A stretch of 63,827 nt of DNA, filler included, from Octopus bimaculoides (taxonomy: Eukaryota): NCBI RefSeq assembly GCF_001194135.2. It is 5 parts of 5 records of this genome, joined end to end, with 100 filler letters (N's around TTAATTAATTAA, not from the genome) between each part and the next. Parts side by side here need not be neighbours in the genome. Positions count along the whole stretch, not along the records: positions 16,503 to 45,576 come from NW_026435294.1; positions 45,677 to 59,034 come from NC_068982.1; 3 more parts are not named here. One strand, 5' to 3'. The notes below the pieces were generated by a model. That model had not been told where the DNA came from. It searched no databases and saw only the letters and a program-made list of their open reading frames with translations. Both the position numbers and the translations under genes were made by a program. This document shows positions 28,801 to 53,176 of this stretch, in pieces. How positions within the stretch are numbered: position 1 is the stretch's first letter; each line of letters begins with the position of its first letter.

Positions 28801-31800
28801 TATTCAGCACACACACACACACACACACACACACATTGACAAGGATAAACAGATATCATTGTAGCACCCCTGCATATATGCTGTACCAAGCACATGCAAA
28901 CACACATATACATACATATATGGTGTCATGTTTTTGATTCAAACAATTTCTATTTCTCTTTTATTCACTCTATCACTTCTACCACTACTTCATGGTGAAG
29001 ACACAGACAGACATAAATTATTAGATCAATATTTGTGTTAGCTAATAAAAACTTGCGTACATGCACGTTTTCTCTTGTTGATTTTTATGAGAGGATTCTA
29101 GTTGTTTAATCAATAGAATTACCTTCTTTCTGTGTTATAGTATAAGTGGCTGAGCATTCCACAGACACCTCTACCTTTAATGTTATCTACAGATAGACTC
29201 AGTTTAACAGTTATAAGTACATCATCTTAAGGCTTCCACACAATTTCTATTTACTCAGTTTCACTTACAAGCCAAGGCCATGATAAAAAGGACTTGCTGA
29301 AGGTGCAACGCTGGAGGGTCAAACTGTAGGACCACATAACTGTGATATGAATGCCTTAACCACATAGCCATGTGTCCGCATATGCTTAAGTATATACAAA
29401 CCCAAAAAATACATTTGGATCACTGATGTGTTTACATAGTCTTTACTTAAAAATACTGTTTCAGCTTTATTCCCCAACTAATTATTATTATTATTATTAT
29501 TGAATCAACAGGAATAATATGTCTCAACCTATGTCAAATCAAAGCCTGACTAGAATTCTTGTGAAAGAATACAATTCTGTAATTCATACGACTTGTCTTA
29601 CCTTGGGTCCTCAACTCCTTGATAGAGTCATGGGGATGCCACTATGACATACCAGCTTGTTTTGGATAATATCTGGCAGAGTCCATCCCTTTCTACACTT
29701 GGCCACAGCCAATTTTTTCCAGGAAGCGACATAGGCAGAAAGACAAAAAAAAAAAAAAGAGCAAGACGAGGAGGGGGAATTAATCTACAGCAGATTGAAT
29801 ATTTCATTGAGGATGAAAGGATGAAAAGCAAAGCTGAGCTTGGGATTTCTTTCCCCTCAGTGTACAAGTCAAGATGATTACTGCAAAACAGAAGTAATAA
29901 CTCTATTTGCTGTCTTATCTGGATCAATATGGGTGGATCAATATGGGTGGATCAATATGGGTGAACTTGGATTGTTGGAGGATGAAAGCAAATCTATAAT
30001 TTATAGACCACATCTGTTTGTGATATCTAAGAAAATAAATATCTTCAAGAATTTAAAATTTAAAGAATGAAGGGCTATGCACAAGATTGCAGAAAGCACA
30101 AGACTCTTTATATTATAAATTTAATTTTAATTTATTTTTGATCAATATATTTTCTTTTCAACATTATCACTGTTGGGCAGGTGGCTGGTCAAATACCAAT
30201 ACTTCAATCAGAAAGGGAATAACGTTTCTGCCAGCAACATTAGCACACCGGGTGAAATGCTTAGCGGGATTTTGTCTACCATTACATTCTGAGTTCAAAT
30301 TCCGCCGAGGTTGACTTTGCCTTTCATCCTTTCGGGATCAATAAATTAAGTACCAGTTACGCACTGAGGTCGATGCAATCGACTTAATCCTTTTGCCTGT
30401 TCTTGTTTGTCCCCTATATGTTTAGCCCCTCATGGGTACTAAAGAAATAAGAAAGGGAATAAATGCATACACAAGACATGCAGTTATATGTATGACTATG
30501 CCTATGTCTGCCCTTCAGTAGAACCCACCATACACACACACATGCAGTTATGTATGCTAGTGGTATAACATTTCCTGTCCAGTTTGTGCCAGCATAGAAA
30601 GCAAATGTAAATTGAGGATCTCTCTCTCTCTCCCCATCCATCCCTTCGTCCACACACATGTACATATATATATATATATATATATATATATATATATATA
30701 TATATATGAGGTGTGTTCTTCAGTAGTAGAATGCATTATAACCGGTAAGGTATTACTATAATTAATGTGTGTGTGTATTTGTAACAGCTGGTTTATATGT
30801 TTCTTGCAGCACTACTTCTCAATGTTGCTACACAGTTCCGAAACCTTCAGGCTGATGGAGCAGCTAACTAATATGGCAATGAAACAGTAAGTATTGAACC
30901 TGACCAACTCTCTCTCTATCTGTCTGTGCCAGTATTTTGTCTCAATGATAGTTCCATCAAAACAGAGAGTTGGAATACTGTTTCAGTTGAATAGTTAGAG
31001 GATCACTAGGCTATAATTGTAATGCTTTCTTTTGATGCTTTCAGAGAAGGAAGAATGTAAAATGGATGGCATTCCCTTGACCTACCTGTATAGATTGATA
31101 TCTCTTTTTCCAGACCTTGATTCTTAACATTCTTTATTCCTATTAATTAATGCTTTTTCTTAATGGTTTCACAATTTGTTTTTGATTAATAATAATCAAC
31201 TTTATCTGTCTGACAACCAGCTTTGTGCCTTGTCTTATTTCTTGTCTCAGTAATGACATGGGAGTTTGTGAAGAACAGGAATTTATTCCATACCTCAGTG
31301 GTTCCAGATTTAACTTCTGTAAGATTCTGTGGCCACTATTTTACAAGATTCCATGTTTATCATTTAAAAACCACTACGCCATATGCCTGTGGGCATATGG
31401 CGTAATGGTTAGGGGTGCAGACTACTAACCCTGAGATTCCAAGTTCGATTCTAGGCAGTGACCTGAAAAATAATAATAATAACAGCAACAATAACAAAAT
31501 CGAAGAATACCTTAGGAATAAGAACCCAGGTTCGAAATTTCCCCAAGACACCTGATGAAGGCTGGAGGGTATATCAGCCAAAACATTCTGTTAACAACAA
31601 ATACGATGAAGACAAATATCCGTCAGTTGTAAATAATGTAAATAATTCCTCATCTCTTAAATATAAAGCTGTATCTTATTGATTTGTTGTTTTTACATTG
31701 TCTCTTTCACTGTCTAAATTCTAGGTTAATGTCTGAAGTGGGGTTTGAAGAGGACAAAATGTTGACACACAGAACAAAGTAAGTTATGGGGTTTTGTTGT

Positions 31801-34800
31801 GCAATTTTATTTGTTTTCACAAGGGAAACTGTTATATTTTAATGTTTGTCAGTTTAAGGTGCAAGATAACTAAGCACATTGTCTTTCCACATTGTGTTGT
31901 GGATGGACAATTTACCACATTTTTACTTGTGTTCTGGCTGGATAACTGCCCATACAGTTTGTTTTGGCTGGAAAACTAACTTCATGGTTTTACTGCAGAC
32001 ATTACATCCATTCTTTAATATGCTTGGTTGACAAAAAAGACATGTTCTACTCTTACTTTGCAGTTGAGTGATTAGCAATTGGAAGATCATTCAACTATAA
32101 ACAGTTTCTGTAGCAAGAAAATAAAAATAATGAATGAATGAATTAAAATACTCCAGTCCTATCTCTGTTTACATGGAAAGGCCAAGTGGTGTCATGCAAC
32201 TGGGTGACAAGTTGTACATAAACACTATGGGTATTGTTAAATGTGGGAATCAGAATTGGCCACATGTGTATAACTAATACAAAATTATTTTCATAGTGTT
32301 TGTTTATCTTCTACGGTATTCTTATATTAAAACATTGAGGCTTGATTTAACAAGGAACAATGCTTAACAAGAAATGGTTTTTTTATATAGATGTAAGACT
32401 TAACATTTATTGATTAATTAACACCAATGCATGCTTGACAATTATTTTATCAACTCTATGAATGTTATAGAGACTGTTGACGCTAGTGGTATTTGAACTT
32501 GGAATGTAGAGGACTGTAAATAAATACTGTAAGTCATTTAGTGTGGTGGTCTATAGTCTCTACTGTTGTATGTAATTTATCTGGTGTTTTATGAAGAAAT
32601 AACATAATAATAACACATTAATAATGATAATTTCTTTCATGGATTTAAAATGATGCATTAGTGTGGAGGTTGTAGTTAGAGACAATGAAATCAAATACCA
32701 ATAGTTAAATGGTACTTCTATTAAGCCCTTGGAAGAATGCAAGGTAACGTCAATCTCAGAATGATTTTAACTCTGAACATTAAGGGACAAAATTATTACA
32801 AGCCATTTTTCCTGGTTCACTATTGATCTCTATCCTCTACTACCATTATTGCTGTTGCAGCAGTAGCAATAGTAGTAATGGTGATTATGATGGTGGTGGT
32901 AGTAGTTGTGGTATCAGCAGTACTGATTGAGTGTATTTAGCAGCCTTATAATTGTTTATTTCTTATTTTTTCATGTTTCTGTATTTAACATTGTGTTGTT
33001 CCAGGAAAAGAGCTTCCAGGAAAATATCACTGCTGAAAAGAGATTTAGATGCCAAGGCTCGCAGTGAAGCTTTTCGGTGAGTTAATACTGATTTTTTAAA
33101 AATATTGTGTAACATTTATGACATCTAGTTGTTTGAAATAAATTGAGTGATATATAGCACATGATTTGTGGTCTGAAGATAACTTTATGTATTGATTCAC
33201 AGCTTCCTACTACTATACCTTGCCTTTGATTATGCTACTATTCGTTAGAGGCAGGGACAGGTTGGAAATGGTTCTCCAACTGTGGCTTAATAGGTATAAC
33301 AGGAGACAATCTGGTAGGACATCATAGACTGTTGTTTTGTTGTTAAGCCCAGCTGTGGCCTTTGTTTACTGACAGTGATCTATGTTGTGATCACTTATCT
33401 TTTAATTGTGGTTGGTTTTTCACTTTCCCCACACCACCTCTTGTCTTTCAAAGTACAGTAAGTATTATGACTGTCCTAGTGTGTCCTGAAGAATCATGGT
33501 TACCATTGTCTTTTGTGTCATAACTTTTGCTCTTTCATTTTTGACAGTCATAATCAAAACATGAACTCTCTTCCTTTAAAAAGAAGGACTGAATAAATTG
33601 AGATGTTGTACAATGGATACTACTTCGTCTCTACAATGCACACTTCACTTCTTATGGTCACCAAACAATGAATTTTCAGCTGAAAATCCAACGGATATGT
33701 GAACTCTGATATGGTGTTTCTTTTAAGGAAAGACATATCAGATGTTTTTTTAAGGTGTAAGTGGAAGGAATTTGGCTGCTATTTCTTGCAAGTTGTAAGA
33801 TTAAATAAAGGCTTGGGATAGTGTAAATAGTGTACTGTGGTATAGTGTGGTTTGGTCCAAGTTGGCTTTCATTGAGAAGACCTATAATCAATGCCATAAA
33901 AAAATTACCATTCTTTACTTTACATAGTGTACTTCAAACTACATTATACAATAGGTTTAAGGGACATTTGGCTATCATTTCTAGTGGCTCAGGCTAATAT
34001 GTAGAGACTCTCCCATAGTATAGCATGAAATCTCATTGATGCTGGGCTGTAATTACCATTATACTTTATCTCAGTTTTAAAGAATCAATCCCAGAAGGGT
34101 GATCTTGTTTAGCTGTTCATTTCCTATGATTAATGATCTTGAAAGAAGTGGATAGTACAGGTAGAAAATTTTGATGTTATGTTGCTTATTTCATAACATT
34201 ATCAGATCAAATTATTGGTTACTCTCAGTTTGCTCATTCAGGTACTCACCATATATATATATATATATATATATATGGTGAGTACCTGAATGAGCAAACT
34301 GAGAGTCTAATCAATAATTATGTTATATACAAAAACATATTCAAGACTTCATGCATCGCATGCAATTTTCAGGATACAGCCAGAAAGATAGAATCCGGGT
34401 ATACAGAGGAGCTAACAAGAAATTTGAGGAGATTGTTGTCAAAGATACAAATGGAACACAACCTAGATACCGTAACAAACAGTGGAATAGACTACAAAGG
34501 ATTAGTGACAAAACAAACAAAAAGACCACGTGGTACAATACCGACAAGCTCCAGGGAGTAATGTTTGTGGACGCCACGCCACACGGAGAACTGGCCCGTA
34601 GATTTCGAAAAATCCTCAAAAGTACCAAGTTGAGGATAAATGTTATAGAAAAACCAGGGAGATCAATTAGATCAATAATATGTAANNNNNNNNNNNNNNN
34701 NNNNNNNNNNNNNNNNNNNNNNNNNNNNNNNNNNNNNNNNNNNNNNNNNNNNNNNNNNNNNNNNNNNNNNNNNNNNNNNNNNNNNNNNNNNNNNNNNNNN

Positions 34801-52745: not shown

Positions 52746-52995
52746 AAGTTTGTTTTATGTTTTAAACTTCCCCCAGAGGGAGTTCTTTTCTTCTAATTGT
52801 AACGATAGTATCAGTTAATCGAAGTTTTACAAGCCACTGCATAACATGCTCGAGACATCCTTGTTTCTGAATTTTTCCGATGCACAAAACTGTAGAAGAA
52901 AAGAAAGGTGTATTGTCGATATAACTGGCCACAGTGTATTACTGGTACTGCACTTTGTCATCCCCGAAGGAATGAGTAACAAAACTAACTTTCAG

Positions 52996-53176
52996 TTCTA
53001 TATTTAAGAGATGAGGAATTACGTACATTATTTACATTATTTACATTTGACAGATATTTATCCTCATCTTGTTTGTTGTTAACACAACGTTTCGGCTGAT
53101 ATACCCTCCAGCCTTCATCAGGTGTCTGGGGGAAATTTCGAACCTGGGTTCTCATTCCTAAGCTATTTTTCAATGT
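52996..53176 (-). mobile_element. Hammerhead-tail SINE copy without head; tail abuts a (TAC)n/(TGC)n microsatellite
   Basis: Near-identical to 43897-44070. Confidence 0.85.
53081..53126 (-). ncRNA. Minimal type I hammerhead ribozyme motif
   Basis: Same fold as 43973-44018 with all core nucleotides intact. Confidence 0.75.

What the first reader, a model, noticed from the sequence alone, without database searches (positions are those of the whole stretch)
31369..53176. tRNA-headed SINE carrying a Penelope-type hammerhead ribozyme: candidate Pol III ribozyme retro-element, 4 copies
Seen: four copies of one ~275-bp non-coding element (31392-31667 +, 43897-44165 -, 44182-44337 +, 52996-53176 -). 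Full copies have Pol III A and B boxes, a (TAA)n linker, then gacac-CTGATGA-A-GGCTG(gagggtatat)CAGCC-GAAAC-GTT-GTGTT, then an agatgagga/tcctcatct hairpin. This folds as a type I hammerhead: stem I GACAC/GUGUU, stem II GGCUG/CAGCC, and a loop-less palindromic AACGUU stem III with a GUU cleavage triplet. The core is intact in three copies; the fourth has G>A changes at two CpG positions plus a stem I mismatch. Established: minimal hammerheads with an extra nucleotide after CUGANGA and a palindromic stem III are typical of Penelope-like element repeats and are thought to cleave as dimers. SINEs usually borrow the 3' end of their partner retroelement. Inference: this is a tRNA-derived SINE that parasitises Penelope (not LINE) machinery and uses self-cleavage to define its 3' end or to form multimers/circles. 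I cannot tell whether the family is already catalogued.
Basis: partly seen in the sequence, partly recalled or inferred. Interest (0 to 1): 0.85.

Follow-up and report, generated by a model that had tools for sequence, protein, structure and literature searches.

The report
Penelope-riding tRNA SINE with hammerhead
A very abundant 280-base repeat, likely from an octopus genome, joins a tRNA-like head to a hammerhead-ribozyme-shaped end and carries the insertion marks of Penelope retroelements, so it is likely a SINE copied by Penelope rather than LINE enzymes, a pairing my literature searches did not find described.

Summary
The repeat is real. There are four copies from probably three insertions; two have the tRNA-like head. 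The Penelope-type minimal hammerhead is intact in two copies, has a G·U wobble in one and is broken in one. Public runs of three coded organisms each gave 42,000-55,000 matching contigs, and protein hits name Octopus.

The new evidence is the insertion geometry. Family-wide 3' ends fall in two clusters about 30 nt apart, as in the Penelope "tail". The head's first base abuts an inverted copy of itself. Copies 2 and 3 form one head-to-head pair, with the tail on one side only, inside an 8-10 bp target duplication. The same hammerhead follows Penelope-like ORFs in other genomes, with covarying stem I.

Best reading (0.70): a tRNA-headed non-autonomous element mobilised by a Penelope RT/GIY-YIG protein.

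Not shown: the partner element, Pol III transcription and cleavage. The family is probably already catalogued as a SINE; ten full-text searches found no report of its ribozyme or Penelope link.

The parts
31369..31391 (-). c1: 19-nt inverted stub of the head (31369-31387) plus a 4-nt spacer, making a 5' palindrome with the head
   Evidence: -29.2 kcal/mol, z -5.5, 0 of 200 shuffles
31392..31674 (+). c1: full element, long 3' end; hammerhead 31547-31592 broken (G12>A, G16.2>A, G1.1>C)
31392..31463 (+). c1 tRNA-like head; A box 31398-31408, B box 31443-31451
43879..43886 (+). Left copy of the candidate target-site duplication (8 bp; 10-bp match 43877-43886)
   Evidence: 2 of 3000 random 20x20-nt pairs share 10 nt or more
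43889..44165 (-). c2: full element with long 3' end and intact hammerhead
43889..43924 (-). Optional Penelope-type 'tail' between the short (43925/43919) and long (43892/43889) family ends
   Evidence: table 7, all three DNA runs
43910..43961 (-). 9-bp hairpin with an A/U-rich interior that holds the short 3' ends; candidate RT binding/initiation stem-loop (inferred)
   Evidence: z -2.2
43973..44018 (-). c2 type I minimal hammerhead; predicted cut between 43978 and 43977
44062..44091 (-). (TAA)n-type linker between head and pLTR-like part
44092..44165 (-). c2 tRNA-like head; A box 44159-44149, B box 44114-44106
44166..44177 (+). 2-nt spacer and 10-nt inverted head stub at the c2/c3 junction
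44178..44337 (+). c3: inverted 5'-truncated partner of c2, ending at the family's short end (no tail); hammerhead 44247-44292 with G·U at 10.1-11.1
44338..44345 (+). Right copy of the candidate target-site duplication (10-bp match 44336-44345)
52993..53177 (-). c4: 5'-truncated copy next to a (TAG)n microsatellite; intact hammerhead 53126-53081; one extra 9-nt unit

Best explanation
This is a high-copy repeat made of a tRNA-like head, a (TAA)n linker and a Penelope pseudo-LTR-like end, and it is likely transcribed by Pol III and likely inserted in trans by a Penelope reverse transcriptase/GIY-YIG protein.

Shown: the anatomy, the abundance, two discrete 3'-end classes about 30 nt apart, varied AT-rich 3' flanks, a palindrome at head +1, inverted partners, and one 8-10 bp duplication around the c2/c3 pair.

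Inferred steps: (1) Pol III reads from the A/B boxes into the flank; no TTTT lies inside. (2) The Penelope protein binds the hairpin downstream of the hammerhead, cuts AT-rich DNA and starts cDNA internally at one of two sites, giving the short or long end. (3) At head +1 the cDNA end folds back on the small palindrome and self-primes, or is joined to a second cDNA primed on the other strand, giving head-to-head pairs. (4) The template is uncut RNA. The hammerhead came along as part of the borrowed cis-module and would cut only as a dimer or with protein help; it does not set the ends.
For:: the best-supported 3' loose ends sit at 43889, 43892, 43919 and 43925 in all three DNA runs (185-334 reads each; 1074 further rows not shown), with varied AT-rich flanks (agreement 0.39-0.45). 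The 5' loose end at 44165 continues as a 4-nt spacer plus inverted head (90-117 reads per DNA run). 4 of the 15 joints shown are opposite-strand, and 3 of those start at head +1.

c2 ends exactly at a long family end and c3 at a short one, inside a 10-nt repeat. Passages of PMC3846280 describe the same set for Penelope: inverted pLTRs, a 31-bp tail on one end only, 8-10 bp TSDs, palindromes at the inverted junction, and pLTRs sufficient in trans. PMC8557442 passages agree. PMC11167929 puts RT starts at +111-118 and the hammerhead cut at +26, i.e. 85-92 nt apart against 86-89 here, and finds cleavage dispensable in vitro.

The same core motif occurs in 77 metagenome loci. Five have a Penelope-like ORF just upstream on the same strand. 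Stem I, which the search pattern did not specify, pairs at 28 of 36 positions against a shuffled mean of 13.4 (0 of 10000). Penelope-like ORF fragments lie in this window. The tail matches none of the window's RTE-like ends or other SINEs.
Against: No autonomous element sharing this tail was found: no genome is held, two protein searches with tail frames gave only SINE-derived stretches, and the window's own Penelope-like hammerhead region is not similar (369 of 500 shuffles score as high).

Only 1 of 3 insertions shows a duplication (c1 and c4 do not), and 2 extra bases separate it from c2's end. No contig spans the whole element because the tool skipped the linker; head-tail linkage rests on 2 of 2 window heads, two bridging records and several deletion joints. 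Pol III transcription is untested, and the lack of TTTT is not significant (63-73% of shuffles lack it). Pairwise 3' ends in the metagenome loci scatter widely (44-236 nt from C3, 39 loci) and do not confirm a fixed distance. There is no two-sided covariation inside the family.
Confidence: 0.7

Rival explanations
1. The repeat is the solo or inverted pseudo-LTR of an autonomous Penelope element whose pLTR captured a tRNA promoter, not a separate non-autonomous family.
For: It has every pLTR mark, and pLTR 5' palindromes are published. Most loose-end rows were not shown, so a minority joined to an ORF could be hidden.
Against: Summed depth falls from 1-1.3 million over 44148-44159 to under 1,500 beyond 44172. 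The 5' loose end is the inverted head, not conserved ORF sequence, and 3' flanks are varied. No RT-bearing protein carries the tail frames (weak tests).
Confidence: 0.12
2. An ordinary LINE-dependent SINE whose body happens to hold a pLTR-derived hammerhead.
For: RTE-like LINEs and other SINEs are abundant in the window. All SINEs are defined as LINE-dependent in the passages seen.
Against: There is no simple-repeat or poly(A) 3' tail; there are two discrete ends 27-36 nt apart and inverted partners. The tail does not resemble two RTE-like ends (62 and 77 of 200 shuffles score as high).
Confidence: 0.08
3. A retrozyme-like or Sm-alpha-like element in which self-cleavage releases monomers or circles that are the mobile form.
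For: CpG-bearing core bases are kept in the majority, and the large non-CpG variants fall at free positions N7 and loop II. One same-strand joint restarts exactly at the base after the cut (43977; 3 contigs in 2 runs).
Against: The main ends are 53-89 nt past the cut, and depth shows no consistent step there. No tandem units were seen. Inverted pairs cannot supply two sense hammerheads in cis. The designed trans double hammerhead (-22.3 kcal/mol) is weaker than two monomers (-24.0) or the non-catalytic dimer (-29.2).
Confidence: 0.07
4. A DNA-level non-autonomous element (MITE or Helitron-associated type; class features recalled, from no call).
For: It has a 5' palindrome, an internal microsatellite and a 3' hairpin.
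Against: No inverted repeat joins the 5' and 3' ends. It shows 5' truncation, two 3' ends, an 8-10 bp duplication and a structured hammerhead, all of which point to an RNA intermediate.
Confidence: 0.03

Closest known systems
Penelope-like element pseudo-LTRs and their non-autonomous derivatives (solo pLTRs, Chlamydomonas MRC1; PMC3846280, PMC8557442, PMC11167929, PMC4209133)
   Same: Minimal type I hammerhead with an extra base after A9, G10.1-C11.1 and a palindromic 15.2/16.2; optional tail of about 30 nt; inverted truncated partner; junction palindrome; 8-10 bp TSD; AT-rich targets.
   Different: The upstream part is a tRNA-like A/B-box head instead of a TATA/Inr pLTR or ORF end; no ORF; unit of about 280 nt.
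tRNA-derived SINEs, including the three octopus families of Ohshima and Okada 1994 (paper not held; OR2 is called a CORE-SINE in PMC4758252; the names OK, OR1 and Twhog are recalled)
   Same: tRNA-like head, short, non-coding, dispersed, very high copy number.
   Different: No LINE-like 3' end or simple-repeat tail. It is not the CORE-like family in this window. Identity with OK or OR1 could not be tested.
Schistosoma Sm-alpha/Sj-alpha SINE-like elements (review passages, PMC6765202)
   Same: Pol III-type promoter followed by a hammerhead in a short repeat.
   Different: Those are often tandem, and cleavage frees copies from multimers. This one is dispersed or inverted, has the minimal Penelope-type motif and the tail geometry, and inserts uncut.
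Non-LTR retrozymes (bioRxiv 10.64898/2026.07.22.740005; PMC7229834)
   Same: Non-coding, type I hammerhead, proposed to derive from pLTRs and to use Penelope machinery.
   Different: Defined as tandem repeats that form circles. No SINE or Pol III head appears in the text seen (0 hits for 'SINE' or 'pol III' in PMC7229834). No tandem units here.
TRIMp3 (Cassandra, Helenus, Ajax; PMC10886601)
   Same: A Pol III small-RNA promoter grafted onto a non-autonomous element that uses a non-LINE reverse transcriptase.
   Different: Those have LTRs, PBS/PPT and LTR-type partners; this would be the Penelope counterpart.

Membership tests
SINE (SINEBase definition) | Short (<700 bp), non-coding, dispersed, high copy | tested here: met
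   277-285 nt; 42,087-54,692 contigs per DNA run
SINE (SINEBase definition) | Head derived from tRNA, 7SL or 5S, with internal promoter boxes | tested here: met
   tRNA profile hits in register and 0 of 300 shuffles reach the score; A/B boxes. ARAGORN and Rfam are negative at default settings
SINE (SINEBase definition) | Transcribed by Pol III | not testable with these tools
   Only contigs were available; run X15 is a guessed RNA run
SINE (SINEBase definition) | Depends on a partner LINE (LINE-like 3' end, simple-repeat tail) | tested here: inconclusive
   No simple-repeat tail and no match to two RTE-like ends; other LINEs were not available. The evidence leans to 'not met'
Penelope-like element (autonomous) | ORF with PLE RT and GIY-YIG endonuclease | tested here: not met
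   No such ORF in any copy
Penelope-mobilised non-autonomous element | Optional 30-40 bp tail (two 3' ends) | tested here: met
   Ends at 43925/43919 and 43892/43889 in 3 of 3 DNA runs
Penelope-mobilised non-autonomous element | Inverted 5'-truncated partner and junction palindrome | tested here: met
   c2/c3, the c1 stub, the loose end at 44165 and opposite-strand joints
Penelope-mobilised non-autonomous element | Short target duplication around the whole insert | tested here: inconclusive
   1 of 3 insertions
Penelope-mobilised non-autonomous element | 3' sequence shared with an autonomous PLE of the same genome | tested here: inconclusive
   No genome held; protein and window tests negative but weak
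Minimal hammerhead of PLE type (PMC4209133) | Core, extra base 9/10.1, G10.1-C11.1, palindromic 15.2-16.2, stem I 4-5 bp | tested here: met
   c2 and c4 intact; c3 has G·U; c1 broken. Stem II is 5-6 bp, shorter than the 7-8 bp given for Schistosoma
Minimal hammerhead of PLE type (PMC4209133) | Covariation of stems | tested here: inconclusive
   None within the family; strong across related motifs in other genomes
Minimal hammerhead of PLE type (PMC4209133) | Self-cleavage | not testable with these tools
   Needs an in vitro or cyclic-phosphate sequencing test
Non-LTR retrozyme | Head-to-tail tandem units, each with a hammerhead | tested here: not met
   None in the window; no full-unit tandem joint among the 15 shown of 179
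Octopus OK/OR1/OR2 SINEs | Sequence identity to the published consensus | not testable with these tools

The most novel reading that the evidence does not exclude
This is the first tRNA-headed, Pol III-driven element mobilised by a Penelope reverse transcriptase: a third class beside LINE-dependent SINEs and LTR-dependent TRIMp3. It has reached about 10^5 copies in octopus, its sense-strand promoter fixes the template polarity of Penelope integration, and it keeps a protein- or dimer-gated hammerhead under selection in its source copies.
Probability: 0.5. Interest if true: 0.85.

Novelty: new variant of a known kind. Interest (0 to 1): 0.72.

Why it matters
SINEs are defined as LINE parasites, so a tRNA-headed parasite of Penelope would widen that definition and reassign a major octopus repeat.

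It also makes open questions of Penelope biology testable at very large sample size. Tens of thousands of near-identical 280-nt inserts record tail choice, fold-back junctions and target duplications. An internal Pol III promoter would fix which strand is the template, a point left open in PMC3846280. The element separates the hammerhead from any ORF or pLTR promoter, so one can ask whether the ribozyme is kept for cutting or for protein binding. It also outlines a minimal cis-cassette for insertion in trans.

Tried and rejected
No whole genome is held, so no genome-wide consensus or partner search was possible.

Rfam listed no hammerhead or tRNA hit at E up to 5-10 (one search showed 150 of 168 rows); its miRNA hits are microsatellite noise. 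ARAGORN found nothing at default, and relaxed thresholds gave many false calls.

Exact element motifs were absent from the metagenome, viral and prokaryote collections. The relaxed motif found 0 viral loci, and one prokaryote locus that looks like a chance match.

Two reading frames of the tail, searched for longer proteins, gave only SINE-derived stretches in Octopus gene models and one unnamed protein. The idea that the ATG in the core starts a partner ORF is unsupported, and that ATG is lost in the N7 variants.

The hammerhead-like region at 35312-35640 is not similar to the tail. Absence of TTTT is not significant. 3'-end distances across metagenome families were too scattered to use; one family has ends at 89-91 and 117-119, like 88-94 and 121-124 here. 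BLAST of the heads against phages gave only E 0.6-7 hits, 4 of 8 on tRNA genes. One search used a misplaced structure string and is superseded.

Earlier findings of the scan: none.

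
Full report
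OBSERVATION. The four copies exist. c1 (31392-31674 +) and c2 (43889-44165 -) are full. c3 (44178-44337 +) and c4 (52993-53177 -) begin in the linker. The hammerhead is GACAC-CUGAUGA-A-GGCUG...CAGCC-GAAAC-GUU-GUGUU. It is intact in c2 and c4; c3 has G·U at 10.1-11.1; c1 has G12>A, G16.2>A and G1.1>C. A descriptor scan of both strands returned c2, c3, c4 and one unrelated site. Rfam listed no hammerhead (one search showed 150 of 168 rows). The motif has the traits listed for Penelope minimal hammerheads in PMC4209133 (parts 1-2 of 4 read).

HEAD. ARAGORN and Rfam miss it. A profile built from 15 distinct short tRNAs out of 23 fetched loci ranks c2's head first and c1's third of 6 window hits, aligned in register; 0 of 300 shuffles reach the pairwise scores. 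A and B boxes sit at 7-17 and 52-60. The source tRNA is not determined.

HOST AND ABUNDANCE. Tail frames match stretches of gene models named Octopus sinensis (86%) and O. bimaculoides (92%). A window ORF fragment is 89% identical to an O. bimaculoides protein. The window is therefore likely Octopus. Sixteen of 24 listed runs, from four coded organisms, hold 0.77 or more of the words. I laid 4 of them: 42,087, 54,692 and 49,620 contigs matched in the three DNA runs and 2,019 in the guessed RNA run. Summed depth of 6-11 million against about 50 for single contigs suggests about 10^5 copies; the tool warns that this is no copy number.

INSERTION GEOMETRY, THE MAIN NEW RESULT. In all three DNA runs the best-supported 3' loose ends are 43889, 43892, 43919 and 43925, followed by varied AT-rich sequence; 1074 further rows were not shown. 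These are two clusters 27-36 nt apart. At the 5' end, depth collapses beyond head +1, and the loose end at 44165 reads as a 4-nt spacer followed by the head in reverse. Four of the 15 joints shown (of 179) change strand, three of them at head +1. The window shows the same. c1 carries a 19-nt inverted stub. c2 and c3 are head to head: c2 ends at a long family end and c3 at a short one, and the pair lies between two copies of an 8-10 nt word (2 of 3000 random pairs reach 10). c1 and c4 show no such duplication.

Passages of PMC3846280 give this set for rotifer Penelope: inverted pLTRs, a 31-bp tail on one end, 8-10 bp TSDs, junction palindromes read as self-priming, and pLTRs sufficient in trans. 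Passages of PMC8557442 agree and name non-autonomous PLEs such as MRC1. PMC11167929 (parts 1-2 of 4 read) shows that the tail is the stretch between two internal RT start sites, that RT starts 85-92 nt after the hammerhead cut, that AT-rich DNA is cut, and that cleavage is not needed for insertion and occurs only with protein. Here the long ends are 86-89 nt after the predicted cut and the short ones 53-59.

THE MOTIF ELSEWHERE. A relaxed pattern found 77 metagenome loci; with the one prokaryote-collection locus these make 65 distinct contexts of 78. In 56 of 65, GAAAC is followed by GT or by AT, its likely CpG-decay form. I tested stem I in the 12 contexts with a canonical GUH plus c2, 9 distinct stems; the other 53 contexts were left out. 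It pairs at 28 of 36 positions against a shuffled mean of 13.4 (0 of 10000). Five loci have a Penelope-like ORF just upstream on the same strand. Two are tblastn hits to the window RT fragment; three were read from ORFs, and L044 has a GIY-YIG hit at E 1.9e-4, just under the Pfam cut-off. 24 of 78 loci have inverted self-matches near the motif. Only 1 has a tRNA-like head within 600 nt upstream, and it belongs to a separate repeat. Their 3'-end distances scatter and add nothing.

IS THE RIBOZYME DOING ANYTHING? Within the 46-nt motif, variants of 8-18% fall on the four CpG bases. The only non-CpG variants above 9% in DNA runs are N7 (two alleles, 11-17% and up to 11%) and one loop II base (2 rows not shown). 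Both positions are free in hammerheads, which hints at selection in source copies; my hand estimate is p about 0.06. There is no two-sided covariation. Cleavage cannot set the 3' end, because ends lie far downstream. Inverted pairs give no second sense motif in cis, and the trans dimer is not favoured by nearest-neighbour energies. One same-strand joint restarts at 43977, the base after the cut (3 contigs, 2 runs). With about 30 joint ends shown over about 300 positions, that has roughly a 10% chance and is only a lead.

MECHANISM. Shown: anatomy, abundance, end classes, palindromes, inverted pairs. Inferred: Pol III transcription; binding of a Penelope protein to the hairpin at 43910-43961; internal priming at two sites; fold-back of the finished cDNA or joining of two cDNAs; a silent or protein-gated hammerhead carried along. 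Both spacer polarities occur (c1 and one row of table 5c against the majority), which would fit transcription from either arm of head-to-head source loci (inference). The partner element was not found. Penelope-like fragments in the window (RVT_1 E 8.7e-4 and GIY-YIG E 0.0078, both under cut-off; atlas 0.95) and a published 6.83% Penelope-like share in O. vulgaris (supplement row) show that candidate partners exist.

PRIOR ART. Pol III plus hammerhead is known from Schistosoma (passages). Non-autonomous Penelope derivatives are known (preprint parts 1-3 of 5; PMC7229834 passages). Pol III heads on LTR elements are known (passages; 'Penelope' occurs 0 times there). Ten full-text searches listed no paper whose title, abstract start or passages I read describe a tRNA-headed Penelope-dependent element or an octopus SINE hammerhead; most listings I saw only as title and abstract start. 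The O. vulgaris annotation (parts 1-2 of 3 read, supplement searched: 'hammerhead' 0) lists most recently active SINE families as unclassified. Other passages seen: PMC6962438, PMC4758252, PMC8967140, PMC3531059; PMC3747384 had no hits for my terms. Not held: Ohshima and Okada 1994, Albertin 2015, Lünse 2016/17. Repbase, Dfam and bioRxiv supplements were not visible and may already name the family or its ribozyme.

VERDICT. Real feature; likely a Penelope-mobilised tRNA-headed element (0.70); new variant of a known kind; interest 0.72.

Noticed in passing
window 10279-10686 +, 12140-12448 +, 34318-34685 +, 35695-36300 +: Decayed Penelope-like ORF fragments (RT and GIY-YIG-like pieces); the last is read by eye only.
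   Followed up: partly
window 35414-35456 +: Second minimal-hammerhead-like motif downstream of the 34318 fragment, across an assembly gap; probably that element's pLTR; not similar to the SINE tail.
   Followed up: partly
window 34222-34305: Perfect 84-nt palindrome with an (AT)n centre at the 5' edge of the Penelope-like fragment; possibly a Penelope-type inverted junction.
   Followed up: no
window 44020-44056 -: Hairpin just upstream of the hammerhead, followed by GAAA and a palindromic word; looks like a degenerate second hammerhead half or a second B-box-like motif.
   Followed up: partly
window 43993-44027 (run X15 against X12): 7 of 9 variants enriched over 2.2-fold in the guessed RNA run are A>G or T>C, up to 20% against 0.2%: a hint of A-to-I editing on both strands. 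The samples differ, so it is unproven.
   Followed up: partly
window 43977 / 43932: Same-strand joint that restarts exactly at the base after the predicted cut, in 3 contigs of 2 runs.
   Followed up: no
window 5614-5885, 13218-13471, 27714-27960, 52324-52584, 54627-54734; and 30228-30400, 50537-50646, 51229-51400, 51657-51756, 57475-57648: Two other SINE-like families, the second CORE-like by recall; further tRNA-like heads at 54548-54601 - and 27581-27619 +.
   Followed up: partly
window 20639-23480 and 40471-43822: Two RTE-like LINE copies (label recalled) in opposite orientation, 74% identical; one ends about 60 bp from the c2/c3 insertion.
   Followed up: partly
window 36997-38078: Degenerate AT-rich tandem array with a period of about 163 bp after the GIY-YIG-like fragment; no hammerhead core found.
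   Followed up: no
proteins P0001, P0004: Octopus gene models whose N-termini are read from this repeat: exonisation or annotation error.
   Followed up: no
L053 (500 nt upstream of the motif); L044 1-2802: L053 has an unrelated tRNA-headed repeat between inverted hammerhead-bearing ends, the kind of arrangement from which such a chimera could arise. L044 is a tandem Penelope-like element with the same hammerhead between ORFs.
   Followed up: partly
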